45,053 nt of DNA, from sequence record MW057918; one strand, 5' to 3'. This document shows, one piece after another, positions 151 through 45,053 of the stretch (positions within the stretch are counted from its first letter, which is position 1; each line of letters starts with the position of its first letter). This DNA is from Escherichia phage Msk. The translations under genes were made by a program, and so were the position numbers. The notes below the pieces were generated by a model. The model made no database searches. It was not told where the DNA came from and saw only the letters and a list, made by a program, of their open reading frames with translations.

Positions 151-1236
151 ATGAGTAAAATCCGCTATGACAGCGCAAAGTTTAAGGCAACAATCGACGA
201 GAATGGATTCTTAGTCGATACACCAGTAGTCGCACGTCTAGGTGTGCAAGTCTACTACATGGAGGACGGTCGCACTGTTCGAGAGTTTCGCCCAGCAGAG
301 GAGGTTTTCAAGGATGAATCACTCTCCAGCTACCAGGGTAAGCCAATGACTCTGGATCATGTTTTCGTTAACTCAGAGAACGCTAAAGAGGTAGTGGTAG
401 GTTCCGTTACTGGCAAAGCTGAGCCATTGGGTAGCTCAGTGGTTGCTCCGATTGTTGTTTACGATAACACAGCCATTCAGGAAGCTATGGCAGGTAACGC
501 CAAGGAGTTATCCGTTGGTTACTCTGCAATTCTTGACGAAACCCCTGGCTGGGGTGACCCTATTACTGGTGAGTACGTACTTAAATCTGATGGTGATCAA
601 TTCGATGCGCCAGATGGTTGGCAGGAGTTCGACGCAATTCAGCGTGACATTAAAGTGAACCATCTCGCAATGGTGTATCGAGGTAGGGCAGGTATTGCCA
701 AATTGAATATGGACGGTGAGCAGGAAAACCCGTATACTACTGACGTTGATATCAATAAAGAGGATAAACAGGAAATGATTAAGATTAAACTCGACGGCGC
801 GCAGGAATTTGAGGTTGCCCCGGAAATCGCTTCTCACATCGAAGCACTGAACGCAAAGGCTGACACCGCAATCGCTGAGCGCGATGCACTGAAAGCTAAA
901 GTTGATGCAATGCCTGCTGAAATTGAGGCCGCAGTTGCTAAAGCGAAAGCTGACGCTGATGCCCTGGCGGCTCTGGTAGCTGTTGCCGCTGAAGCTGGTG
1001 TCAAGGCTGACGGCCTGGATGCTAAAGGCATTAAAGTGGCTTACGTTAAAGAAATCTCCGGCCTTGATGTTGGCGAGAAGTCTGACGCGTACATCGACGC
1101 AGCGTTCGACATTGCCAAAGAATCTGATAAAATGGCTGAAGTACGTAGAGCGACTACCGCTTCCGACAAATCTGACAGCGCCGTAGAGCCTAAGAAATTA
1201 GACCCGCGTGCTCGTTTAGCTAAAATTAAGAAATAA
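151..1236 (+). CDS. Prohead protease/scaffolding-like protein with Ala/Lys-rich coiled-coil C-terminus
   Basis: 361-aa ORF directly upstream of decoration-like and major capsid genes; C-terminal third is low-complexity AEAKA-rich as in scaffold proteins; position in head module. Confidence 0.45.
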   Translation: MSKIRYDSAKFKATIDENGFLVDTPVVARLGVQVYYMEDGRTVREFRPAEEVFKDESLSSYQGKPMTLDHVFVNSENAKEVVVGSVTGKAEPLGSSVVAPIVVYDNTAIQEAMAGNAKELSVGYSAILDETPGWGDPITGEYVLKSDGDQFDAPDGWQEFDAIQRDIKVNHLAMVYRGRAGIAKLNMDGEQENPYTTDVDINKEDKQEMIKIKLDGAQEFEVAPEIASHIEALNAKADTAIAERDALKAKVDAMPAEIEAAVAKAKADADALAALVAVAAEAGVKADGLDAKGIKVAYVKEISGLDVGEKSDAYIDAAFDIAKESDKMAEVRRATTASDKSDSAVEPKKLDPRARLAKIKK

Positions 1237-1247
1237 GGAGTTATAAC

Positions 1248-1466
1248 ATGGCAATTCGTTCCGTAGCACTGGCTGGTATGGTTTCTGATACCTCTCTGTA
1301 CAACATCGATGGCGCTTGTGTAGTTGGCGGCGCAGCAGCCATTCCGGTTGGCACTTTTGTTGGCGTTACATCCGCTCAGCCTGTAGATGGTCACAAGGTT
1401 GTTGGACTCCCAGTCGTAACTGGCTCGGCAGTTAAACCTTATGGTGTTGTTGTTAAATCTCAATAA
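1248..1466 (+). CDS. Head decoration-like small Gly/Val-rich protein, N-terminal segment (same frame as 1512-1757, separated by a TAA)
   Basis: Strong SD AAGGAG 8 nt upstream of ATG; Gly/Val/Ala-rich beta-type composition; located between scaffold and capsid genes. Confidence 0.45.
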   Translation: MAIRSVALAGMVSDTSLYNIDGACVVGGAAAIPVGTFVGVTSAQPVDGHKVVGLPVVTGSAVKPYGVVVKSQ

Positions 1467-1511
1467 GAGACTCCAGATGGCACAGCTCGCGTAAATGAAG
1501 CGGTTAACGTA

Positions 1512-1757
1512 ATGACACATGGTCGAGTCTGGGTTCGTACAAATCTAGCGGCTGCGCCAGCTTTTGGTGGCAAGGTTTTTGTAAACGCGAGTGGCGTTGT
1601 TGTCGCAGAAGCGGCAGGTGCTACTTGGGAGACTGGTTTTACATTTGCTGGTGGTTACATTAAAAACACGAGCACAGACCCGCAAGACCTAAGCGTTGAT
1701 GGCGCACTAGTTGAAGTTCAGCTTATTCAATCCGCAGGCTCAACTGTTGCAGCTTAA
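1512..1757 (+). CDS. Head decoration-like protein, C-terminal segment (possibly continuous with 1248-1466)
   Basis: Same reading frame as 1248-1466 with a single intervening TAA at 1464-1466; no convincing SD of its own; followed by strong terminator. Confidence 0.35.
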   Translation: MTHGRVWVRTNLAAAPAFGGKVFVNASGVVVAEAAGATWETGFTFAGGYIKNTSTDPQDLSVDGALVEVQLIQSAGSTVAA

Positions 1758-1774
1758 TAATTAAGATATATAAA

Positions 1775-1797
1775 GCCTCCTTCGGGAGGTTTTTTTA
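1775..1797 (+). terminator. Rho-independent terminator (CCUCC-UUCG-GGAGG hairpin plus U-run)
   Basis: aagcctccttcgggaggttttttt seen directly. Confidence 0.7.
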
Positions 1798-6535: not shown

Positions 6536-9514
6536 ATGGCAACAAATGAATTAGCTGGAATCACACTAGCCGTAGACGTCTCGCAGGTAGACAGAGGTAC
6601 GCAGTCCCTGCAGAAGTTCAGGCAGGCAAACCAGCAAGCCGCTTCCGGCATTAGTGAGTTCGTCAATGCTGAGCAGGTTGCTAAAAACCAGGCTAGAGAT
6701 ACCGCTCGCGCACTTGCTGAGCAACAAGCATCTTTAGCTAAATTGCAAACGGCTATTGACCCAACTGCGGCAAAGTTCCGTAAGCTGCAAGAGGCAGCGG
6801 TGGGTCTTGATAAGGCGTTTGCTGCTGGCGTAGTTCCTGATGAGGAGTTTTTCCGCTTAGGTGAGGCACTTGAAACGCAGAACGCAAAACTTGCTCGATC
6901 ACGTGCAGCGCTAACTGAAGAGGGTAGGGCAGCAGCTCAAGCCGCAAAGGATAAGGCAAAGGCAAAGGCTGAAGCTGATAGGTTCATTGCGTCACTTGAG
7001 CGTCAGGCTCAGGCGGCAACATTGACGCGTGAGGAGTACTTAAAATTACAGGCTGCTCAGCTTGGCGTAAGTTCTCAGGCAGCGCCTATTATTGACAGAA
7101 TCGCCGATGCATCACAGAAGGCAAACACCCAGCTAATTGCTCAGAGCAAGGCATTTCAACGCTCTGGATTAAGCGCGGGTCAATACAAGGCTGCAATCTC
7201 TCAATTGCCAGCGCAGATTACAGACATTGGGACATCACTTGCTGGCGGCATTCCGATTTGGCTTATTGCAATTCAGCAAGGCGGGCAAATTAAGGATGCA
7301 TTTGGAGGTATTGGTAACACCTTTAGATTCGCGCTAGCAGCCTTAAATCCATTCAATGTTGCTGTTGGGGTTTTGGGTGGCGCGCTTGTTGCTCTAGGTA
7401 TCGGTGCTGCCCAGGCAGAGAGTGAATTCAGAGCATTAAATTCTGCCATTGCGTTCTCAAACAACTCCACAATCGCATCAATCTCGCAGGTTAGAGATTT
7501 GGTTAGCTCTGTTTCTGATGCTACTGATGCAACCAGAGGACTTGTGACTAGCATCGCAACAAGCCTTATTGAGCAAGGGAACCTTACGCTGACGCAGATT
7601 GACAAGATTACTAAATCTACCGCCAGATGGGCGCAGTTGACAGGTAAGGATGCAAAGGAAATTACTGGTTACTATAACCAGATTGCGAGCGACCCAATTC
7701 AAGGACTTGCTGATTTAGACAAGAGGTTTAACTTCCTTACACAGGGGCAGTTAACAACAATTGAAAGATTGAGAGAGACTAGGGGTGAGGTTGAAGCCGT
7801 AACTGCTGCTATTGATATATTTAGCAAATCACAGGAGGCAAACCTTAACGATATTGCAGCCCAGCTTACTCCTCTTGAATTGGCCTGGAATGACTTCAGG
7901 AAGTACATATCTGATGTATGGGATGCAATTAGTCGCAGAACGGTTGGGGCGCTAAACCTGTTTGTTGACGTAATCGCCGGAACAATTGAGCAAATTAGGG
8001 TCTTCATCAACCAGGGTGATGTGCTGATTGGTGAATTCGTAATTAGCGCAACACAGGCACTGCAGAACATCCCCGGCCTTGATGGTGTTGGTGATGATGT
8101 TATCAAGGGGCAGCAGAAGATTATCGATGCAGCTAAGAAGCAAAACATTGAGCTAGAGAAGTCTATCAAGGAGCGCGATGCCAGAATCAGAGAAGGAGAA
8201 CTTGGTTACGTTACTCGCAGAGAAAATCAGAATACCAATGAGCAGTCAGGCACTGATGAGGAGTTTGCAAAAAGGAAGAAAGCACTTCAGGATGAACTTG
8301 ATGCGATCAAGAAGAACAGGAAAGAAGAAAATGGTAGGGTTAAAGAGCAAAGAGACCTTACAATTGGTTACGAATCTGGCGTACTTGCACTACAGGCACA
8401 ACTCAAGGTGCTTCAGGAAAACAGGGATATTGGCGCAGTAATAAGCAATGAGCGCAAGCAGTATCTTCAGGAGGAGGCTAAATTCAGGATTCTTGAGCAG
8501 AGGCAACTTGATGGCTCAATTACCAAAGAGCAAGCAAGGCTTCTAATTGAAAAGGATAAAGTTCTTGCACTCGCAAGGCAGAAAGCTGAGTTAGGCGATC
8601 AGATTGTTTTGCAGGAGCGCGCCAATAAGTTAGCTGAAGATAACCGCAAGAAGATTCTTCAGATTAACAACGAAGCAAGCAATATTAATTTGGGGGCTGG
8701 TTTGTCATCTCGCGAGCAGCAGAGGGCAAGAGAGATTCAGGCTCTCCAGTCCAATCAGGTTAATGCTGGTGGCTCTCTTGATGATTTTGATTTTCAGCAA
8801 TTACTGGAAGCAAGAAAGGAATACTACAAGCAGGAGGATAATCTTAGGTCTGATTGGCAAGCTGGCGTAACATCAACGCTTGCAGACTTGGCTGAGAAAT
8901 ATACAGACTACAATCAGATAGCTAAGGATTTAACTGTTGCGGCATTCGATGGAATTACAGACCAGATTACAAACCTTGTAACCACTGGTGAGACCAACTT
9001 CAGGGAGTTCACCGCAAACATCCTCAAAATGATTGCGAAGATTGCAACTCAGTTACTTTTGGTTAAGGCCATCGAATCAACATTGACTAGTTTTGGTGGT
9101 GGAGGAGGTAACGCGTTTGGCTCAATTGCTTCCGGGTTAGGTTTCGCTGGTGGCGGCTACACTGGTGATGGTGGAAAATATCAGCCAGCAGGAACGGTAC
9201 ACCGAGGTGAGTTTGTATTCACAAAAGAAGCGACAAGCAGAATTGGTGTGAAAAACCTTTACGCACTAATGAAAGGTTACGCGAATGGCGGTGTTGTTGG
9301 TGGCCCTTCTGGTTATGCGAATGGTGGATTGGTTTCTGGAGGCGCAGATGTTAATGTTAGCGGGATTACTGTTAGCGTTAATAGTGGGATTGGAAGCAAC
9401 CCAGAGCAGGCCAAGGCGCTGCAAAATGGCGTTAAGGCAATCGTAGCTGAAGAGATTGCTCAGTCATTCCAGCAGGGGGGCAGAGCTTATCAGTACCTTC
9501 GCGGATTCAACTAA
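6536..9514 (+). CDS. Tail tape measure protein
   Basis: 992-aa ORF, long coiled-coil-type low-complexity regions, Gly-rich C-terminal segment, canonical position after G/GT. Confidence 0.8.
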   Translation: MATNELAGITLAVDVSQVDRGTQSLQKFRQANQQAASGISEFVNAEQVAKNQARDTARALAEQQASLAKLQTAIDPTAAKFRKLQEAAVGLDKAFAAGVVPDEEFFRLGEALETQNAKLARSRAALTEEGRAAAQAAKDKAKAKAEADRFIASLERQAQAATLTREEYLKLQAAQLGVSSQAAPIIDRIADASQKANTQLIAQSKAFQRSGLSAGQYKAAISQLPAQITDIGTSLAGGIPIWLIAIQQGGQIKDAFGGIGNTFRFALAALNPFNVAVGVLGGALVALGIGAAQAESEFRALNSAIAFSNNSTIASISQVRDLVSSVSDATDATRGLVTSIATSLIEQGNLTLTQIDKITKSTARWAQLTGKDAKEITGYYNQIASDPIQGLADLDKRFNFLTQGQLTTIERLRETRGEVEAVTAAIDIFSKSQEANLNDIAAQLTPLELAWNDFRKYISDVWDAISRRTVGALNLFVDVIAGTIEQIRVFINQGDVLIGEFVISATQALQNIPGLDGVGDDVIKGQQKIIDAAKKQNIELEKSIKERDARIREGELGYVTRRENQNTNEQSGTDEEFAKRKKALQDELDAIKKNRKEENGRVKEQRDLTIGYESGVLALQAQLKVLQENRDIGAVISNERKQYLQEEAKFRILEQRQLDGSITKEQARLLIEKDKVLALARQKAELGDQIVLQERANKLAEDNRKKILQINNEASNINLGAGLSSREQQRAREIQALQSNQVNAGGSLDDFDFQQLLEARKEYYKQEDNLRSDWQAGVTSTLADLAEKYTDYNQIAKDLTVAAFDGITDQITNLVTTGETNFREFTANILKMIAKIATQLLLVKAIESTLTSFGGGGGNAFGSIASGLGFAGGGYTGDGGKYQPAGTVHRGEFVFTKEATSRIGVKNLYALMKGYANGGVVGGPSGYANGGLVSGGADVNVSGITVSVNSGIGSNPEQAKALQNGVKAIVAEEIAQSFQQGGRAYQYLRGFN

Positions 9515-9544
9515 TTAATGGGGCTTCGGCCCCTAAGGATTTTT

Positions 9545-9895
9545 ATGGCTATTGATACTTTTAACTGGTGCACGCAGATTCAGGGCGGGTCCGCATCTTT
9601 CAGTAACACAAACAACGTCCGCATTGTTAGCTTCGGTAATGGTTATGAGGCTAGAGGCACTGGCGGTTATCGCAGCAATAAGCGCAGCTACCAGATGACC
9701 TACACTAACAAGGACTGGAGAGATGTGATGGATTTCTGCCTCAACCACATCATTACCCCGTTCTTCTGGACTACGCCGCAGGGCGACACATCCATGTTCG
9801 TTATTCAGCAGGATAGTATTAGCGTTACACCAGTCAGTAAGGAAGTTCAGACTGTAAGCATGCAATTCGTAGAAGTATTTAGTTCAATGCGTTAA
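9545..9895 (+). CDS. Minor tail protein (lambda gpM-like)
   Basis: ATG at 9545 with AAGGA SD; about 117 aa, first gene after tape measure as in lambda M-L-K-I-J order. Confidence 0.5.
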   Translation: MAIDTFNWCTQIQGGSASFSNTNNVRIVSFGNGYEARGTGGYRSNKRSYQMTYTNKDWRDVMDFCLNHIITPFFWTTPQGDTSMFVIQQDSISVTPVSKEVQTVSMQFVEVFSSMR

Positions 9896-9898
9896 ACT

Positions 9899-9922
9899 AA
9901 GCCCCTATGCGGGGCTTTTTTA
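9899..9922 (+). terminator. Rho-independent terminator/attenuator
   Basis: agcccctatgcggggctttttt. Confidence 0.5.
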
Positions 9923-9934
9923 TTGGAGAAATAT

Positions 9935-10690
9935 ATGCTAAGTTCAAAGTTTGAAAATCAGTTGCAAAGCCTTTTCCCTGGCGAGATTGTGACGCTAATC
10001 CAGGTTGACGGAACCTCCTTCGGAAGTCTCGTTTACAACTTCCACAATGAGAACATTTCATACACGCCAGAAGAGATTATGATGGCTCAAATGAATGGCG
10101 AGCCACTACCAGAGAAGACTATTACATTTCGTGGTGAAGAGTATGGCCCCAGACCTTTTGGTATCTCGGGCATCAATATGACCTCTGACGGCAAGGCCAA
10201 CAAAGTTACGCTAACAGTATCAAACGTAGACCAGCGAATTAGCGCATTGATTCGAACATACAACGGACTTGTTAAAGCTAAGGTTACCATCTGGATTACT
10301 ACGCGAGACAACATCAACGAAGATGGAAGCATTGCTGATGGGGACTATCGCAGATTTGTTTACTTCATTGAGCGACCGAAGCAGGTTGATTACAAAACCG
10401 CATCATTTGAGCTAAGTAGCCCAATGGATATGGATGGCATTTACATCCCAGCGAGACCTGTTCAGTCTGTTTGCTATTTCGCCTCTAGGGGCTGGTATCG
10501 AAGTGGTAATGGTTGCACCTATGCTGGTAATAGATATTTCGACAAGGATGATAATCCAGTGGCGGACCCTTCATTAGACTTCTGTGCGGGGACTGTCAAT
10601 AGCTGCAAAATCAGGTTTGGTGAGAATAATCAGTTAGATTTCGGCGGTTGCGCTGCCGCAAGCCTTCAGGCTAAAGCCAACCAGAGTTAA
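9935..10690 (+). CDS. Minor tail protein (lambda gpL-like)
   Basis: ATG at 9935 after GGAGAAA; C-terminal Cys cluster as in gpL Fe-S region; position. Confidence 0.55.
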   Translation: MLSSKFENQLQSLFPGEIVTLIQVDGTSFGSLVYNFHNENISYTPEEIMMAQMNGEPLPEKTITFRGEEYGPRPFGISGINMTSDGKANKVTLTVSNVDQRISALIRTYNGLVKAKVTIWITTRDNINEDGSIADGDYRRFVYFIERPKQVDYKTASFELSSPMDMDGIYIPARPVQSVCYFASRGWYRSGNGCTYAGNRYFDKDDNPVADPSLDFCAGTVNSCKIRFGENNQLDFGGCAAASLQAKANQS

Positions 10691-20566: not shown

Positions 20567-23015
20567 AATAAATTTTTACATCTGGAGAAATTCCAACGCA
20601 AGTCCAGCGCGAGAACTTGGCATCATAAACGAATGACATTCCAATTTGTCTCCCCTCAGATGGAGTTGTGAATGAGCCAACTCTAAACTTATTGCTAAAT
20701 GAAACGGATGGACGCCGGCCGCCTGAAAGGTTGTAAATTATGAAGTCTATCCTCTGTGCATCTCTTGCGTTATCCTGAACATCAATAACTACAGGACTTG
20801 AATCAATTACAACGGTTGCAAGACTTGTTCTTAGTGGGTTAAATAGAATACTACCACCAGATAGCTGAACCCTTTTTTGAACGGGGTTAGAAGAATCCGT
20901 GTACAACCCTGTGTTTATATTATACAAAGCCTCCCATGAATTCAGTTTTGAGTCATCAATCACTGTTGCATACTGCCCAAATAGTATAGTCCCTTCTACA
21001 TGGTTTCCTGAAGCTCCATTATAAAAATCAAAACCAGAAGCTGATCCACCAACAAACCTATTAGCTCTAGCTCCGTTAACTTGAATTGATGGAGACTGAA
21101 AACCTGACTTCAGGCCATTGAACAAGTTTCCTGTCGCCGTCTTCCTAAGAACGACGTCACCACCAGAGTTGACCTCAAGGTCGCAACCAATAACAGTGTT
21201 AGTTACTGCTGTTATGCCTAGGTCTGACTCATGACCGAAAGAAAACCCATACTTATTTCCCTCGCTGGTTCCACCAATAAATGTCGTATTACTGCAGAAT
21301 GTAGCCTCAATTCCTGATTCTGTTACATGCTCGCAAGTTGGGTTAATAAAAAGATCTGCAGATGTGCCGCGGAAGTTCACAGCGCCAGCCTCTGCGTCAA
21401 TTAATATGCCGTACGTAGGCGTCGTTGTGAAGGTCTCAACGTTACCAGAGCACACAAAGTTATTATGCACGCATAGCTGAGTCCACCAGCAGTGTAAACC
21501 AGCCCTTCTAATGTTCGTAGCCATTAGGTTGTCAAAGCATGATGATATGACACCCCTTAATGAAAAGCCATCACTAGCATACCCATTCCCATCGACAATG
21601 ATGTTGCTCATATATGAGTTGTATGCCCAATAATCTAGGTTTACATCCCTATGATCCATTTGGATGACGTAATCATGAGGTCCGCTAGTTAGTGAGATTC
21701 TTGCGCCTTTCTCACCGATAATTGTTGCTGGCCTCAGAAAGTTTAATGGCTGAGATGTAAGATAATTACCTTTAGGAATATGTATAGCAATAGCGTTGTT
21801 TCTAGATGCCTCAACAGCGGCAAGCAATGCCTGAGTATCATCTGTTACACCATCACCAACAGCGCCAAAGTCCTTCTTAATATCGACATGAGTAAGTAAA
21901 GCGTTTACCTCTGGCTTTGAGTAAACATCAAGATTTGTTCTTGCTGCTGACTTATTTGCAACATCAGAGAAATTCAATGATTTTTGAAAAGTCTCATTTT
22001 TTGAATAAACATCAAGATTTGTTCTTGCTGCTGACTTATTTGCAACATCAGAGAAATTCAATGATTTTTGAAAAGTCTCATTTTTTGAATAAACATCAAG
22101 TAAGTTTCTAGCCCTCGATGCCGTAGCTCCACCTCCGGACTTGCCAGCCTCAACCATCACCATTTCCCTACCTGGTGCATAAACCCTGCTTCCGGGCGCT
22201 CCCACAAACTGAATGTAAATCTCCCTGCTATACTGGTTGCTTGTTGAAGATTGGCCTACAACTCGCAAGGAGTGCGTGGTTGTATTGCTTGACTTTGATA
22301 TTACCTGAATGCATAAAGCAGCAATTGATGTTCCAAATGTTGAGATTATGTCATTTGGAGCATTTATCATTGATGAAACGTTAACCATATAAAGGCCACC
22401 GGATTTAAAAACAAATTCCTGCCAATCAAAATTGCTTATCAATGGCGTAGTGTCTGTCGCCAATCCATATCCGGCAAGAGTTACCAACGTTCCGGCATCC
22501 CCGGCGTTATTAATTGCTTTAATCGTCTGATCTCTTGCTGCAGTGGTCGTGTCTCTTGCACTAATAGCAGTAGCGGCGCTCTCTTCGGCAGCAATCTGGC
22601 TAGCAAGAGCCTCAGCAGCTCCAGTGGTGGATTGTTTTGCAAGCTGCTCGAAGAGAGGCCAGTCGAAAGTGTCTTGACCAATAAATTGCAACAATCCTTC
22701 GATTGATGTCTCCTTTGACTGGTAGTAACGCAAAGTCTCTGCTACATCCTGAGCCAACCCCTGAACGGTAATTCCATCGTGCGCAAGAATTGCATAACCA
22801 GTTCCGGAAGGAACAGTTTCAGAGTTAGGGTTGTAAACATTAATCTGAGTATCGCTGATGATTTCAGAGATGGTATAAATCTTCAGGGGGCTGGTTTTAA
22901 AAATAATGGTTGCACCTACGCGAATAAGTGTAAGCGGTGCTTTCCATGTTGTACCCACGCCAGTTACCTCGCCATTTGCGGCCAGCGACGCTGTTCCTAA
23001 GTCATAAATTGCCAT
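20565..23015 (-). CDS. Tailspike with pectate-lyase-type beta-helix (putative polysaccharide depolymerase)
   Basis: ATG at 23015 with GGAGAA SD; DFGAVGDGVTDDTQAL signature of pectate_lyase_3-type tailspikes; internal perfect 28-aa tandem repeat. Confidence 0.7.
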   Translation of the reverse strand: MAIYDLGTASLAANGEVTGVGTTWKAPLTLIRVGATIIFKTSPLKIYTISEIISDTQINVYNPNSETVPSGTGYAILAHDGITVQGLAQDVAETLRYYQSKETSIEGLLQFIGQDTFDWPLFEQLAKQSTTGAAEALASQIAAEESAATAISARDTTTAARDQTIKAINNAGDAGTLVTLAGYGLATDTTPLISNFDWQEFVFKSGGLYMVNVSSMINAPNDIISTFGTSIAALCIQVISKSSNTTTHSLRVVGQSSTSNQYSREIYIQFVGAPGSRVYAPGREMVMVEAGKSGGGATASRARNLLDVYSKNETFQKSLNFSDVANKSAARTNLDVYSKNETFQKSLNFSDVANKSAARTNLDVYSKPEVNALLTHVDIKKDFGAVGDGVTDDTQALLAAVEASRNNAIAIHIPKGNYLTSQPLNFLRPATIIGEKGARISLTSGPHDYVIQMDHRDVNLDYWAYNSYMSNIIVDGNGYASDGFSLRGVISSCFDNLMATNIRRAGLHCWWTQLCVHNNFVCSGNVETFTTTPTYGILIDAEAGAVNFRGTSADLFINPTCEHVTESGIEATFCSNTTFIGGTSEGNKYGFSFGHESDLGITAVTNTVIGCDLEVNSGGDVVLRKTATGNLFNGLKSGFQSPSIQVNGARANRFVGGSASGFDFYNGASGNHVEGTILFGQYATVIDDSKLNSWEALYNINTGLYTDSSNPVQKRVQLSGGSILFNPLRTSLATVVIDSSPVVIDVQDNARDAQRIDFIIYNLSGGRRPSVSFSNKFRVGSFTTPSEGRQIGMSFVYDAKFSRWTCVGISPDVKIY
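21923..22100. repeat. Perfect 84-bp tandem duplication (2 copies plus 10-bp partial) inside tailspike coding sequence
   Basis: Identical 84-bp units at 21923-22006 and 22007-22090 seen directly. Confidence 0.85.
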
Positions 23016-23055: not shown

Positions 23056-23079
23056 GTTGGATTGTAGCATCTTTCAGGC

Positions 23080-23106
23080 ATAAAAAAAACCTCCCAAAGG
23101 AGGTTA
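23080..23106 (-). terminator. Rho-independent terminator after primase gene
   Basis: minus strand reads acctcctttgggaggtttttttt. Confidence 0.65.
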
Positions 23107-28646: not shown

Positions 28647-29777
28647 ATGGCAGTAGCAAAGATTACCAACGAGCAGCTTATCGAAGAGTTGAAAAATGGC
28701 ATGACTAACAAGGCGATTGCAGAGAAGTATGGCATGAACATTCGCAACGTCGAGCTTCGTCGCAGCAAGTTGGCTAAGAGTGGAGTTGGGCATGGTAATG
28801 AGGGTATCAATAAGCTAGTACCGGATGGATATTTAGTCAAGGGCACTTCAACCATGATTGATGCGGAAGGGAATGAGAAGCTGCGCTGGGTTAAGACGAG
28901 CGTTGATAATGAGCGCCTTGAGGTTTTAATGGAGCAAGCTCGAGAAGCGTTTTGCTCTGAGTTGCCAAAGGCAGATTCGGTCAACCACTCAGGTAATGAG
29001 GTCAATTCTGAATTAATGACTCTTTACCCGATTTTCGATATCCATATCGGCATGATGGCTCATCGACATGAGTCTGGTGAAAATTATGACACGAACACAG
29101 CAGAGAAATTGATGGGGTCATATTTTGACCATGCAATTTCTGTATCACCAGCCTCGGAGAAAGCCGTGATTTTAGTTGGCGGCGACTTCCTTCACTCTGA
29201 TGGACTGGAGGCTGTAACCCCAGCAAGCGGACACTGCCTTGATCAAGATAGTCGATATGCCAAGTTAGTTTATGTAGCAATTCGATCAATTCGCGGTGCG
29301 GTAGAGAAGATGCTTAAGAAACACAAGGAGGTCGAGATTCAAATCATAGAGGGCAATCATGATCAAAGTGGTATGATTTGGCTTCGCGCTGCAATGGCTG
29401 CATTTTATGAAAGAGAGAGTCGAGTGTTTGTTGATACCAGTCCGGCAATCATGCACAAGACGCGATTTGGCTCAACATTACTTGGTTACACGCACGGTCA
29501 CACGATGAAGAAAGCCGAGGGTCGACTAGCAGCAATGGCGACCGACTACCGCAAAGACTTTGGTGAATGTGAGTTTGTTTACTGCCACTCCGGCCATTTC
29601 CATCATGCAACTGTTACAGAGTGCACTCTTGGGATTGATGAAGTCCACCCTGCACTTGCTAGCAAGGATGCATATGCGGCACGGGGAGGGTGGAGATCAT
29701 ATCGACAAGCGGCTGCAATTATTTACCACAAGAATTTTGGCGAGGTTGGTCGACACATTTATCGCCCAGGTATGTAA
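28647..29777 (+). CDS. HTH domain fused to calcineurin-like metallophosphoesterase
   Basis: N-terminal MTNKAIAEKYGMNIRNVELRR HTH-like; MPP motifs DIHIG, GGDFLHSD, EGNHD, GYTHGH, GHFH. Confidence 0.6.
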   Translation: MAVAKITNEQLIEELKNGMTNKAIAEKYGMNIRNVELRRSKLAKSGVGHGNEGINKLVPDGYLVKGTSTMIDAEGNEKLRWVKTSVDNERLEVLMEQAREAFCSELPKADSVNHSGNEVNSELMTLYPIFDIHIGMMAHRHESGENYDTNTAEKLMGSYFDHAISVSPASEKAVILVGGDFLHSDGLEAVTPASGHCLDQDSRYAKLVYVAIRSIRGAVEKMLKKHKEVEIQIIEGNHDQSGMIWLRAAMAAFYERESRVFVDTSPAIMHKTRFGSTLLGYTHGHTMKKAEGRLAAMATDYRKDFGECEFVYCHSGHFHHATVTECTLGIDEVHPALASKDAYAARGGWRSYRQAAAIIYHKNFGEVGRHIYRPGM

Positions 29778-29851
29778 ATAGTACTTTTTGTTAATAAAGC
29801 CTCAAAGGATTGAGGCAAAATGAATAAACGATAAAGAGATGAGGAATTGTA

Positions 29852-30325
29852 ATGATTTACGTATTTGATATCGATGGAACTATAGCTAATAATGAGCATA
29901 GAAGTAACCTCTTGCCATTCAGCGACCTTCACTTGACTTCAAGTTGGAAGGATTACAATAAAGCCTGTTCTGGAGACTCACCAATAATTCCAATGATAAA
30001 CATGATGAATACGTTATCCGACTCATCGCCAGTTTACATCATGACCTCAAGAAGTGATGAAGTTGAATGGAGGACTCTTGAGTGGCTTAAGGATAATGAG
30101 GTTGAGTATGATTCGATATACATGAGAAGTCGATATGACAACCGAAAAGATTACAAAATAAAAGAGGAATGGCTTAATGAAATCAGTGGTGGCGATAAAA
30201 GCAATGTGATTATTTTTGAAGATAACCCACAAGTAATTAAGCACCTAAGAAGTTGCGGATACACCGTTATGGCTGTATGTGAATATGAAGACCTACCTAA
30301 AGACTGCGAATCTCACGGAGAATGA
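29852..30325 (+). CDS. HAD-superfamily phosphatase (T4 Pnk 3'-phosphatase-like / nucleotidase)
   Basis: Motif I FDIDGT at N-terminus; C-terminal FEDNPQV...GY pattern resembles T4 Pnk phosphatase domain end. Confidence 0.55.
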   Translation: MIYVFDIDGTIANNEHRSNLLPFSDLHLTSSWKDYNKACSGDSPIIPMINMMNTLSDSSPVYIMTSRSDEVEWRTLEWLKDNEVEYDSIYMRSRYDNRKDYKIKEEWLNEISGGDKSNVIIFEDNPQVIKHLRSCGYTVMAVCEYEDLPKDCESHGE

Positions 30326-30879
30326 AAATGACTAAATTATTTATCCTTAATGGCCCAGCTGGAGTTGGCAAGGACACTATAGCGGATATGATGGTTGAGA
30401 CTGGTGTCGCAAAAGAAAAGGTATCATTCAAGTCACCAATATTTAGAGTTGCAAAAGGAATGCTATCAAGCGATGAATTTGATGAATTCATCAAGAATTA
30501 CGACAATAGAGACTATAAGGAATCACCTCATAGATTTCTTGTCGGTATGACAGTTCGTGAATTTATGATTTGGATTAGCGAGTCTGTAATGAAGCCAGCC
30601 TTTGGTGATGATGTTTTCGGTAAAAGGCTAGCGCAGTCACTTGGTGATGGCTGCTACATTTGCGCTGACGGTGGATTTGCTAGCGAGATTAAGCCACTGA
30701 TCGACGCTGGTGTTGAGGTCACGTTAATCAGATTGCATAGGGCAGGGTACACATTTGATGGCGATAGTCGCTCATACATTCACGGGGTGTGCGCAAGAGA
30801 AATTGATGTTCGTGTTGTTGATTGTGATATTAATGGAACATCAGCATTGGTAAGGCACGTAATAAATAGCACAAATTGA
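30322..30879 (+). CDS. P-loop kinase, deoxynucleoside-monophosphate-kinase-like
   Basis: Walker A NGPAGVGKDTIAD resembles T4 gp1 dNMP kinase P-loop SGVKRSGKDTTAD; 4-nt overlap with HAD gene. Confidence 0.45.
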   Translation: MKMTKLFILNGPAGVGKDTIADMMVETGVAKEKVSFKSPIFRVAKGMLSSDEFDEFIKNYDNRDYKESPHRFLVGMTVREFMIWISESVMKPAFGDDVFGKRLAQSLGDGCYICADGGFASEIKPLIDAGVEVTLIRLHRAGYTFDGDSRSYIHGVCAREIDVRVVDCDINGTSALVRHVINSTN

Positions 30880-30909
30880 TAAAGATAATAATAAAAACTT
30901 AGTTATCAT
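30864..30909 (+). promoter_or_regulatory. Motif-class promoter (variant AAATAGCACAAATTGATAAAG, 22 bp, TATCAT)
   Basis: Variant motif overlapping kinase stop; leader acatcgaaacgag. Confidence 0.4.
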
Positions 30910-30950
30910 TAACACATCGAAACGAGATTAACTAAACGAGGAAACACAAA

Positions 30951-31127
30951 ATGACTAAAATGATTTATTGCACCAAAAACAACTCCAAGACTCTGCCATT
31001 TACAGTTAACCAGCCGTACAACGCAGAGTACCAGGGCGATGGATATTACAAGATTTATGGAGACGATATGACGCACATCTTAGCGCCGATTGATGGTTCG
31101 TTGGTTGAATTTATTATCGCTGACTAG
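30951..31127 (+). CDS. Hypothetical small protein (58 aa; not in ORF track)
   Basis: ATG with GAGGAAA SD downstream of motif promoter; translation done by eye. Confidence 0.35.
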   Translation: MTKMIYCTKNNSKTLPFTVNQPYNAEYQGDGYYKIYGDDMTHILAPIDGSLVEFIIAD

Positions 31128-31152
31128 CGCAGCAAAAACATAATGTTACGAA

Positions 31153-31180
31153 CGGGGAGCCTTTTGGCTCCCTTTTTTTA
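31153..31180 (+). terminator. Rho-independent terminator
   Basis: ggggagccttttggctcccttttttt. Confidence 0.7.
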
Positions 31181-31257
31181 TGCTTCTTTTCCGAGCGGTG
31201 CTAATGTATCATTCTTTTATTAACTTAAGAATTGACAAATACATAAAGGTGGATCAC

Positions 31258-31473
31258 ATGAGGGAAGTAATCAACGCCGCTACAGCATCAACTGGCGGTG
31301 CTGCGTTTACTGGAGCGGCAACTGGTCAAATGACTATAGCAATAATCAGCCTTATCGCTCTAATCATTTTTGGAGCTTGGGGTGCTTACTGGAAGTATAA
31401 GGATAGTCAAGCTATCAGGCGGGCGCTTGAATCTGGAGACTTGAAAATAGCAATCAATATAAGGAGCAAATAA
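31258..31473 (+). CDS. Putative holin (single TMD)
   Basis: ATG at 31258 after AAAGGTGGA; 71 aa with hydrophobic segment and charged C-terminus, immediately upstream of endolysin. Confidence 0.5.
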   Translation: MREVINAATASTGGAAFTGAATGQMTIAIISLIALIIFGAWGAYWKYKDSQAIRRALESGDLKIAINIRSK

Positions 31474-44472: not shown

Positions 44473-45053
44473 GAGCCAGGTAAACCGCAATCTTAGCATT
44501 GCGGTAACTGAGCTAATTTCAGCAATGAGGGAATCAGCAACAAGACTTAAAATTGATACTGCAGAGGAGCTGGAGGAAGAGGATGGATATCTTGACGGGA
44601 TAATTGCGGCGCTGGTGGCTTCATTTATATCAACAATCCCAACCATAGGTGCAGCTATATACAGATACAATAGCTCGCAATTTCTTGTGCTTGCAATCAA
44701 GACTGGCGGGAGGTCAAACCCTAGCGTTCTAGACCTTGAAGTTAATGGCATCAATGGCGATGAGCCGTGGTATAATGATGACCTTAATCAGTGGGTTTAC
44801 ACCACAAACAAGTCAGTGATTAAATTGCTGAATAACATTAAAGATGACTTTTTGCAGACGGCGTCAACAATCCAGAATGGGGACTACGTTAAGTTATCCG
44901 ATAGGTACAAAACATACAGGAAGCGAACGGCAAACATTGCATCTGGAATTGTCTCAAGTCTGAACTCAACACTTATGAGACGTAGGCTTGAGGATGCTGG
45001 TGTTAGCCGATACGTCTGGCATGGAATGCTAGATGAAAGAGAGCGCCAATCTC
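44441..45053 (+). CDS. Head morphogenesis protein (Mu F / SPP1 gp7-like), 3' end beyond window
   Basis: Frame open from 44423 to window end; ATG at 44441 (alternative 44525); follows portal as in many siphophages. Confidence 0.4.
   Translation, partial: MTRWKYPQTIESQVNRNLSIAVTELISAMRESATRLKIDTAEELEEEDGYLDGIIAALVASFISTIPTIGAAIYRYNSSQFLVLAIKTGGRSNPSVLDLEVNGINGDEPWYNDDLNQWVYTTNKSVIKLLNNIKDDFLQTASTIQNGDYVKLSDRYKTYRKRTANIASGIVSSLNSTLMRRRLEDAGVSRYVWHGMLDERERQS

What the first reader, a model, noticed from the sequence alone, without database searches (positions are those of the whole stretch)
1248..1757. Head decoration-like gene split by a single in-frame TAA
ORFs 1248-1466 and 1512-1757 are in the same frame and separated only by TAA at 1464-1466 plus 45 nt without a stop. 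The first has a strong SD and the second has essentially none. Both halves share the same Gly/Val/Ala-rich composition. Possibilities are a sequencing error, a nonsense mutation rescued by readthrough or suppression, or two coupled genes.
Basis: seen in the sequence. Interest (0 to 1): 0.5.

Follow-up and report, generated by a model that had tools for sequence, protein, structure and literature searches.

The report
Capsid cement gene broken by stop
This is an ordinary phage capsid "cement" protein gene interrupted by one stop codon that exists only in this unverified database record, so it is most likely a sequence error or a recent laboratory mutation, not a new translational mechanism.

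Summary
ORFs 1248-1466 and 1512-1757 share a frame and are separated by TAA (1464-1466) plus 45 stop-free nt.

The window is coliphage MSK (GenBank MW057918, Drexlerviridae). Its published ORF table lists these ORFs as MSK_00002 and MSK_00003. Together they form one capsid cement/decoration gene: a single Pfam Phage_cement domain, homologous to T1 gp49, which is one beta-tulip chain in the solved T1 capsid.

The near-identical isolate OzMSK (PQ659294) has one 169-aa CDS here. The two records differ in this gene only at 1463 (T>A, His72Gln) and 1466 (C>A, Tyr73stop). All 80 related viral contigs carry an uninterrupted ORF, and Ser71-His72-aromatic73 is a conserved motif. No public contig carries the MSK allele.

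TAA is the commonest genuine stop in the genome, there is no suppressor tRNA, and the second ATG has a negligible Shine-Dalgarno sequence. Programmed readthrough and "two coupled genes" are therefore rejected.

The remaining options are an error in the record (about 0.55) and a genuine recent nonsense mutation (about 0.35). For an error: the record is flagged UNVERIFIED, all polarised MSK-specific changes are to A, and a base is missing at the record junction. MSK's raw reads are not public, so the choice cannot be settled here.

The parts
1236..1240 (+). Shine-Dalgarno sequence (AGGAG) of the cement-protein gene; its first base overlaps the last base of the protease stop codon (1234-1236)
   Evidence: Read from the sequence. 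Annotated as a ribosome binding site at the equivalent position 9519-9523 in PQ659294. Duplex energy -8.8 kcal/mol.
1248..1757 (+). Whole capsid cement/decoration protein gene (169 codons plus stop in relatives), interrupted at codon 73 in this record
   Evidence: Single CDS XLM52735.1 in OzMSK. One Phage_cement domain, E 6.7e-27. Matches PDB 9kmg, T1 gp49, E 3.7e-27.
1248..1466 (+). N-terminal fragment ORF (72 aa; MSK_00002), covering profile positions 11-67 of the cement domain
1461..1463 (+). Codon 72, CAA (Gln) here but CAT (His) in OzMSK and close relatives; position 1463 is T>A
   Evidence: His is present in 69 of 81 homologues. Codon is CAC or CAT in 68 of 80.
1464..1466 (+). Premature TAA; TAC (Tyr73) in OzMSK; position 1466 is C>A
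   Evidence: Position 73 is aromatic in 74 of 81 and a sense codon in 80 of 80 relatives. The allele is absent from public contigs.
1467..1511 (+). 45-nt 'spacer', which is really codons 74-88 of the cement gene (ETPDGTARVNEAVNV)
   Evidence: Identical to OzMSK coding sequence. Aligned columns are conserved, with Asn87 and Val88 invariant in 81 of 81.
1512..1757 (+). C-terminal fragment ORF (81 aa; MSK_00003), starting at the conserved internal Met89 and covering profile positions 89-145
   Evidence: Weak SD, -2.7 kcal/mol.
1772..1797 (+). Intrinsic-terminator-like hairpin plus T-run after the gene, before the major capsid gene
   Evidence: T1 has an annotated terminator at the equivalent place after gp49.

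Best explanation
The region is one gene for the capsid cement (decoration) protein of a T1-like (Drexlerviridae, Braunvirinae) coliphage. By homology with T1 gp49, the 169-aa product folds as a single beta-tulip domain and forms trimers. [quoted passage not shown] The in-frame TAA is not a property of the gene family or of the phage lineage. It is a two-base difference (CAT TAC to CAA TAA) peculiar to the deposited MSK sequence. It is most likely a local error in that unverified short-read assembly, so the real phage probably makes the normal full-length protein.
For: Identity of the window: the MSK paper's supplementary table gives MSK_00001 151-1236, MSK_00002 1248-1466, MSK_00003 1512-1757 and MSK_00004 1869-2813, exactly the window coordinates.

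One gene: it is a single CDS in OzMSK and vB_EcoS-12210I, one Pfam Phage_cement domain spans the stop, and T1 gp49 was modelled as one chain, residues 2-158, in the cryo-EM capsid.

Uniqueness of the stop: the window and OzMSK differ at 8 substitutions and 1 indel in 45 kb, and two of them are 1463 and 1466. Outgroups share the OzMSK state at both. 80 of 80 relatives have uninterrupted ORFs. Five independent contigs matching a degenerate 24-mer all carry CATTAC. The 72-aa product occurs once among about 15 billion proteins, on the MSK contig itself.

Signs of an imperfect record:
- GenBank flags MW057918 as unverified.
- The circularised record lacks one base at its junction, inside the head-morphogenesis gene, and has an extra A in a poly-A run.
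- All four polarisable MSK-specific substitutions are changes to A (chance about 0.01 by my estimate).
- The two changes are 3 nt apart (P about 0.004 for independent events) and both hit conserved residues.
- The assembly merged SOAPdenovo, SPAdes and ABySS with CISA and then applied GapCloser.

Viability: MSK grows to 1.5e10 PFU/mL on E. coli C, which I know as a non-suppressing strain, and is described as very stable.
Against: High-coverage short-read consensus is normally accurate at unique sites, and no repeat of the local sequence exists in the genome that could explain a misassembly. The other MSK/OzMSK differences lie in tail-fibre and tailspike-like genes and look like real biological variation, so the two isolates do differ. 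Decoration proteins of some phages are dispensable in the laboratory (my own knowledge: T4 Hoc/Soc, and lambda gpD with shortened genomes). MSK particles were reported to break and lose DNA in sucrose gradients, which a cement-less capsid might do. MSK raw reads are not public, so the error is not demonstrated.
Confidence: 0.55

Rival explanations
1. The stop is a genuine, very recent nonsense mutation (a single two-base event) in the MSK laboratory stock. Under this reading the cement gene is a fresh pseudogene. The phage survives without cement protein, or with only traces made by basal readthrough or reinitiation at Met89, because the protein is dispensable under laboratory growth.
For: The sequence is a published assembly with evenly distributed coverage, whose restriction pattern matched the assembly. 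There is no local repeat to cause misassembly. Downstream codons 74-169 are identical to OzMSK, as expected for a very recent lesion. All 7 coding differences between MSK and OzMSK are non-synonymous, consistent with unselected laboratory mutations. MSK particles were fragile in sucrose gradients.
Against: The gene is intact in 80 of 80 relatives, and the motif is conserved, which implies strong selection. In T1 the N-terminus of the homologue is embedded in the capsid wall, which argues for an integral role. MSK is reported to be highly stable and high-titre. The propagation host is a non-suppressor (own knowledge). The record is flagged unverified and has other defects. No second copy of the gene could compensate.
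Confidence: 0.35
2. The TAA is decoded at useful efficiency, by programmed readthrough, a suppressor tRNA or stop-codon reassignment, so a full-length protein is made from the interrupted gene.
For: Only that the frame stays open for 45 nt after the stop and the downstream half is intact. That is equally expected for an error or a recent mutation.
Against: TAA terminates 42 of the 74 CDSs annotated in OzMSK, including this gene itself and its neighbours. The only tRNA is Arg(TCT). The stop context is TAA-G, which from my own knowledge is an efficient terminator in E. coli. RNA folding around the site is unremarkable, z = -0.87. No relative has a stop here, so nothing could have evolved to read it.
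Confidence: 0.03
3. The two ORFs are two functional, translationally coupled genes whose products assemble into a split cement protein.
For: Both ORFs were called as genes by RAST and Glimmer in the MSK paper. Ribosomes terminating at 1466 could in principle reinitiate at ATG1512 (own knowledge of termination-reinitiation).
Against: Orthologues are always one gene. The break lies inside one Pfam domain, within a conserved Ser-His-aromatic motif. Fifteen conserved residues (74-88) would be lost. ATG1512 has an SD weaker than 96% of real starts and lies 45 nt from the stop. Met89 is a conserved internal residue in 75 of 81 homologues.
Confidence: 0.02

Closest known systems
Escherichia phage vB_EcoS_OzMSK capsid decoration protein XLM52735.1 (PQ659294, CDS 9531..10040)
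   Same: It is the same gene in the same genome. 508 of 510 nt are identical, with the same flanks, RBS and terminator. The OzMSK allele is confirmed by an independent Logan re-assembly of its reads, SRR31488468.
   Different: OzMSK has CAT TAC (His72-Tyr73) where the window has CAA TAA (Gln72-stop).
Phage T1 cement protein gp49 (YP_003896.1; PDB 9kmg, 9kmh, 9kzj)
   Same: It occupies the same position, between the prohead protease and the major capsid gene, and is followed by a terminator. Sequence homology covers residues 5-140, E 3.7e-27. It is a beta-tulip fold that forms trimers at threefold and quasi-threefold axes.
   Different: T1 gp49 is 158 aa and uninterrupted. T1 also has a second, paralogous cement protein, gp48 (255 aa, with a C-terminal Big2-like domain), that forms heterotrimers with gp49. 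MSK/OzMSK has no gp48 equivalent between the cement and capsid genes.
Pfam PF22758 Phage_cement (E217 gp24 / Pam3 gp6) and PF23982 XM1 gp53 minor capsid protein
   Same: The intact protein matches PF22758 nearly end to end (profile 11-145 of 146, 94.8 bits against a cutoff of 27) and also matches PF23982.
   Different: In this record the domain is cut into two ORFs, each matching only half of the profile.
Phage lambda gpD and other trimeric beta-tulip decoration proteins
   Same: The T1 authors describe the gp49 fold as analogous to gpD. The role is the same: stabilising threefold positions of an HK97-fold capsid.
   Different: No sequence-level membership was tested or found here. T1-type cement proteins insert their N-terminus into the capsid inner surface, unlike gpD.

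Membership tests
Phage_cement (PF22758) / T1 gp49-type capsid cement protein | Sequence matches the family profile above the curated gathering score | tested here: met
   The intact reading scores 94.8 bits against a cutoff of 27, E 6.7e-27. Each window half also passes on its own, at 41.2 and 38 bits.
Phage_cement (PF22758) / T1 gp49-type capsid cement protein | Homology to a protein experimentally seen as a capsid cement protein in a solved virion structure | tested here: met
   phmmer against the PDB: 9kmg 'Decoration protein | cement protein II' (158 aa), E 3.7e-27, aligned across the stop site. The T1 cryo-EM paper identifies it as gp49.
Phage_cement (PF22758) / T1 gp49-type capsid cement protein | Gene located in the head module, between the prohead protease/scaffold gene and the major capsid protein gene | tested here: met
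   DUF2213 protease at 151-1236 and Major_capside PF09950 at 1869-2813. The order is the same in T1 and OzMSK.
Phage_cement (PF22758) / T1 gp49-type capsid cement protein | Encoded as one continuous polypeptide forming one beta-tulip domain | tested here: not met
   In this record codon 73 is TAA. In OzMSK and 80 of 80 relatives the ORF is continuous. The failure is specific to the MSK record.
Phage_cement (PF22758) / T1 gp49-type capsid cement protein | Protein present as trimers on the MSK capsid | not testable with these tools
   The MSK paper assigned SDS-PAGE bands only by mass. The AlphaFold single-sequence model was unusable, pLDDT 31.5.
Programmed stop-codon readthrough / stop-codon recoding in phages | The stop codon is conserved at the site in related genomes | tested here: not met
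   0 of 80 relatives have a stop at codon 73. 5 of 5 contigs matching the 24-mer carry TAC.
Programmed stop-codon readthrough / stop-codon recoding in phages | The recoded stop codon is avoided as a genuine terminator, and/or a cognate suppressor tRNA is encoded | tested here: not met
   TAA ends 42 of 74 CDSs. The only tRNA is Arg(TCT).
Programmed stop-codon readthrough / stop-codon recoding in phages | A stimulatory context or RNA structure downstream of the stop | tested here: not met
   MFE z-score is -0.87 for 1455-1560. The context is TAA-G.

The most novel reading that the evidence does not exclude
The TAA is real in the MSK stock, and the phage still builds infectious, stable capsids on a non-suppressing host. 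This would show that the T1-type cement protein, whose N-terminus is threaded into the capsid wall, is dispensable, or that two fragments (1-72 and 89-169) can complement each other.
Probability: 0.08. Interest if true: 0.35.

Novelty: not a real feature. Interest (0 to 1): 0.08.

Why it matters
It matters mainly for data quality. The MSK record (MW057918) splits an ordinary capsid cement gene into two 'hypothetical proteins' (MSK_00002 and MSK_00003), and this propagates two spurious small proteins into protein databases. Anyone using MSK as a reference should use OzMSK (PQ659294) for this gene. If the stop were real, it would be a natural knockout of a T1-type cement protein. That would be modestly useful for asking whether that protein is essential, but it would not reveal a new mechanism.

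Tried and rejected
- T1 as a precedent for a split gene. The OzMSK annotation note mentions similarity to both T1 gp48 and gp49, which suggested T1 might be split at the same place. It is not: gp49 is the full-length orthologue, and gp48 is a separate 255-aa paralogue after a terminator.
- Recoding or suppression. Rejected on stop-codon usage, tRNA content and RNA folding.
- Misassembly through a local repeat. No other copy of the 20-mer exists within 3 mismatches.
- Host or prophage origin of the variant segment. There is no match in complete E. coli genomes.
- A compensating second cement gene. tblastn of the window finds none.
- Structure prediction of the intact protein from a single sequence. 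pLDDT was 31.5, so the model was discarded and no fold search was run.
- Locating the window's own record by the 72-aa product. The look-up of encoding contigs returned nothing, so identity was established through the MSK paper's supplementary table.
- Gel evidence in the MSK paper. Bands were assigned by mass only and no peptide data exist.
- The large protein-database searches (search for homologous proteins, the search of protein representatives) were not run. 80 viral loci, 115 full-coverage phage records and the PDB hit already answered the question.

Full report
**1. Observation**

An ATG at 1248 is preceded by AGGAG (1236-1240). TAA lies at 1464-1466, followed by 45 stop-free nucleotides in the same frame, ATG at 1512 and TAA at 1755-1757.

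The Shine-Dalgarno contrast is real:
- The duplex energy with the 16S 3' end is -8.8 kcal/mol before ATG1248, stronger than 86% of annotated starts in this genome.
- It is -2.7 kcal/mol before ATG1512, weaker than 96% of annotated starts and typical of internal in-frame ATG codons.

**2. Identity of the window**

Megablast found Escherichia phage vB_EcoS_OzMSK (PQ659294.1). It has the same length, 45,053 bp, and is circularly permuted relative to the window.

A full alignment shows only 8 substitutions and 1 indel. The OzMSK paper states that OzMSK differs by 'only 9 nucleotides' from phage MSK (MW057918), whose GenBank entry is classified as unverified.

The MSK paper's supplementary ORF table lists MSK_00001 151-1236, MSK_00002 1248-1466 (72 aa), MSK_00003 1512-1757 (81 aa) and MSK_00004 1869-2813. 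These are exactly the window coordinates. The window is therefore the MSK record, and the split is present in its published annotation.

**3. What the gene is**

In OzMSK the region is one CDS of 169 codons, annotated as capsid decoration protein. It is also one 169-codon CDS in vB_EcoS-12210I.

The intact protein matches one Pfam domain, Phage_cement PF22758. The match covers profile positions 11-145 of 146, at 94.8 bits and E 6.7e-27. The two window ORFs match only profile 11-67 and 89-145 respectively.

Against the PDB it matches the 158-aa 'cement protein II' of entries 9kmg, 9kmh and 9kzj (E 3.7e-27). That alignment runs straight across the stop site: KSHYETPDG aligns with RSHWQTVNA.

The T1 cryo-EM paper shows this protein (gp49) modelled as one beta-tulip chain, residues 2-158. 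It forms trimers at the threefold and quasi-threefold axes, and its N-terminus is embedded in the capsid.

The flanking genes fit a head module. A DUF2213 prohead protease lies at 151-1236 and the major capsid protein at 1869-2813. A terminator-like hairpin at 1772-1797 follows the gene, as in T1.

The OzMSK annotation note could suggest that T1 is split in the same way. It is not: gp49 is the full-length orthologue and gp48 is a separate 255-aa paralogue.

**4. The stop is unique to this record**

Within the gene, the window differs from OzMSK only at two positions:
- 1463: T>A, CAT>CAA, His72Gln.
- 1466: C>A, TAC>TAA, Tyr73stop.

Comparative evidence:
- Two outgroup genomes share the OzMSK state at both positions.
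- All 80 related IMG/VR loci have one uninterrupted ORF of 143-270 aa.
- In their alignment Ser71 is invariant, His72 is present in 69 of 81, position 73 is aromatic in 74 of 81, and Asn87 and Val88 (inside the 45-nt 'spacer') are invariant. Met89 is a conserved internal residue in 75 of 81.
- Codon 73 is a sense codon in 80 of 80.
- A degenerate 24-mer that accepts both alleles and both intermediates found 4 viral contigs, 1 metagenome contig and 0 genome contigs. All five carry CATTAC.
- The 72-aa and 81-aa products occur once each among about 15 billion proteins, on a 45,053-bp NCBI contig.
- The OzMSK allele is confirmed by an independent Logan re-assembly of its read set SRR31488468, which had 557-fold MiSeq coverage.

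**5. Mechanistic alternatives**

Recoding or suppression is not supported:
- TAA ends 42 of 74 annotated genes.
- The only tRNA is Arg(TCT).
- The RNA around the site folds no better than shuffled sequence, z = -0.87.
- No relative has a stop here for a readthrough signal to have evolved around.

Two coupled genes is not supported either:
- The break lies inside one domain and inside a conserved motif.
- Fifteen conserved residues would be lost.
- ATG1512 has no real SD and lies 45 nt from the stop.

No second cement gene exists in the genome.

**6. Error or real mutation?**

The two changes lie 3 nt apart. For 8 random substitutions in 45 kb, any pair that close has P about 0.004. They therefore represent one event.

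Points favouring an error in the record:
- The GenBank entry is flagged unverified.
- The assembly merged three assemblers with CISA and then applied GapCloser.
- When circularised, the record lacks one base at its junction, inside the head-morphogenesis gene. It has an extra A in a poly-A run.
- All four MSK-specific substitutions that outgroups can polarise are changes to A. That is about 0.01 by chance and looks more like a technical signature than a mutational one. This last point is inference.
- The phage grows to high titre on E. coli C. From my own knowledge that strain is a non-suppressor.
- The phage is described as very stable.

Points favouring a real mutation:
- Short-read consensus is usually reliable at unique sites.
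- No local repeat explains a misassembly.
- The two isolates do differ elsewhere, in tail genes.
- Some decoration proteins are dispensable (own knowledge).
- MSK particles were fragile in sucrose gradients.

MSK reads are not public, so I cannot settle this. I put an error at about 0.55, a real recent nonsense mutation at about 0.35, and everything else at under 0.1.

**7. Verdict**

This is an ordinary, well-characterised capsid cement-protein gene. The interruption is record-specific and most likely artefactual. Interest is low. Its main value is as a correction to the MSK annotation.

Noticed in passing
window 45014-45053 joined to 1-40: The MSK record is opened inside the head-morphogenesis gene (OzMSK CDS 7658..8386, T1 gp51 homologue). 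Relative to OzMSK, one base (A) is missing at the end/start junction, so the gene would be frameshifted (…ERERQSL*) if the record were circularised.
   Followed up: partly
window 23074-23082: There is one extra A in an intergenic poly-A run compared with OzMSK and two outgroups. Together with the missing junction base, this explains why both records are exactly 45,053 bp.
   Followed up: partly
window 1463, 1466, 23082, 36544, 36715 (and 20972): Every MSK-specific difference that outgroups can polarise is a change to A or an added A: T>A, C>A, +A, C>A, G>A. Site 20972 is also A in MSK but could not be polarised. This may be a technical signature of the assembly. It remains unexplained.
   Followed up: partly
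window 20574, 20972, 22030 (minus-strand gene, OzMSK 28848..31298): Three of the nine MSK/OzMSK differences fall in the 816-aa pectate-lyase/tailspike-like gene (N814K, H682Y, E329A). That gene contains an internal direct repeat: window 21916-22016 and 22000-22100 are about 98-99% identical. The OzMSK authors also report variability here.
   Followed up: no
window 14826: There is a Thr925Ala difference in the 1141-aa central tail fibre (T1 gp33 / lambda J homologue) between MSK and OzMSK. The outgroups are split on this site, so polarity is unclear.
   Followed up: no
whole window: All seven coding differences between MSK and OzMSK are non-synonymous. This is compatible with unselected laboratory mutations or errors (about 0.13 by chance), or with host-range selection on tail genes.
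   Followed up: no
window 1248-1757 compared with T1 (L005 5745-7050): T1 carries two paralogous cement genes: gp49 (158 aa) and gp48 (255 aa, with a C-terminal Big2-like domain). MSK/OzMSK and its Braunvirinae relatives have only one, so their capsids presumably carry homotrimers only.
   Followed up: partly
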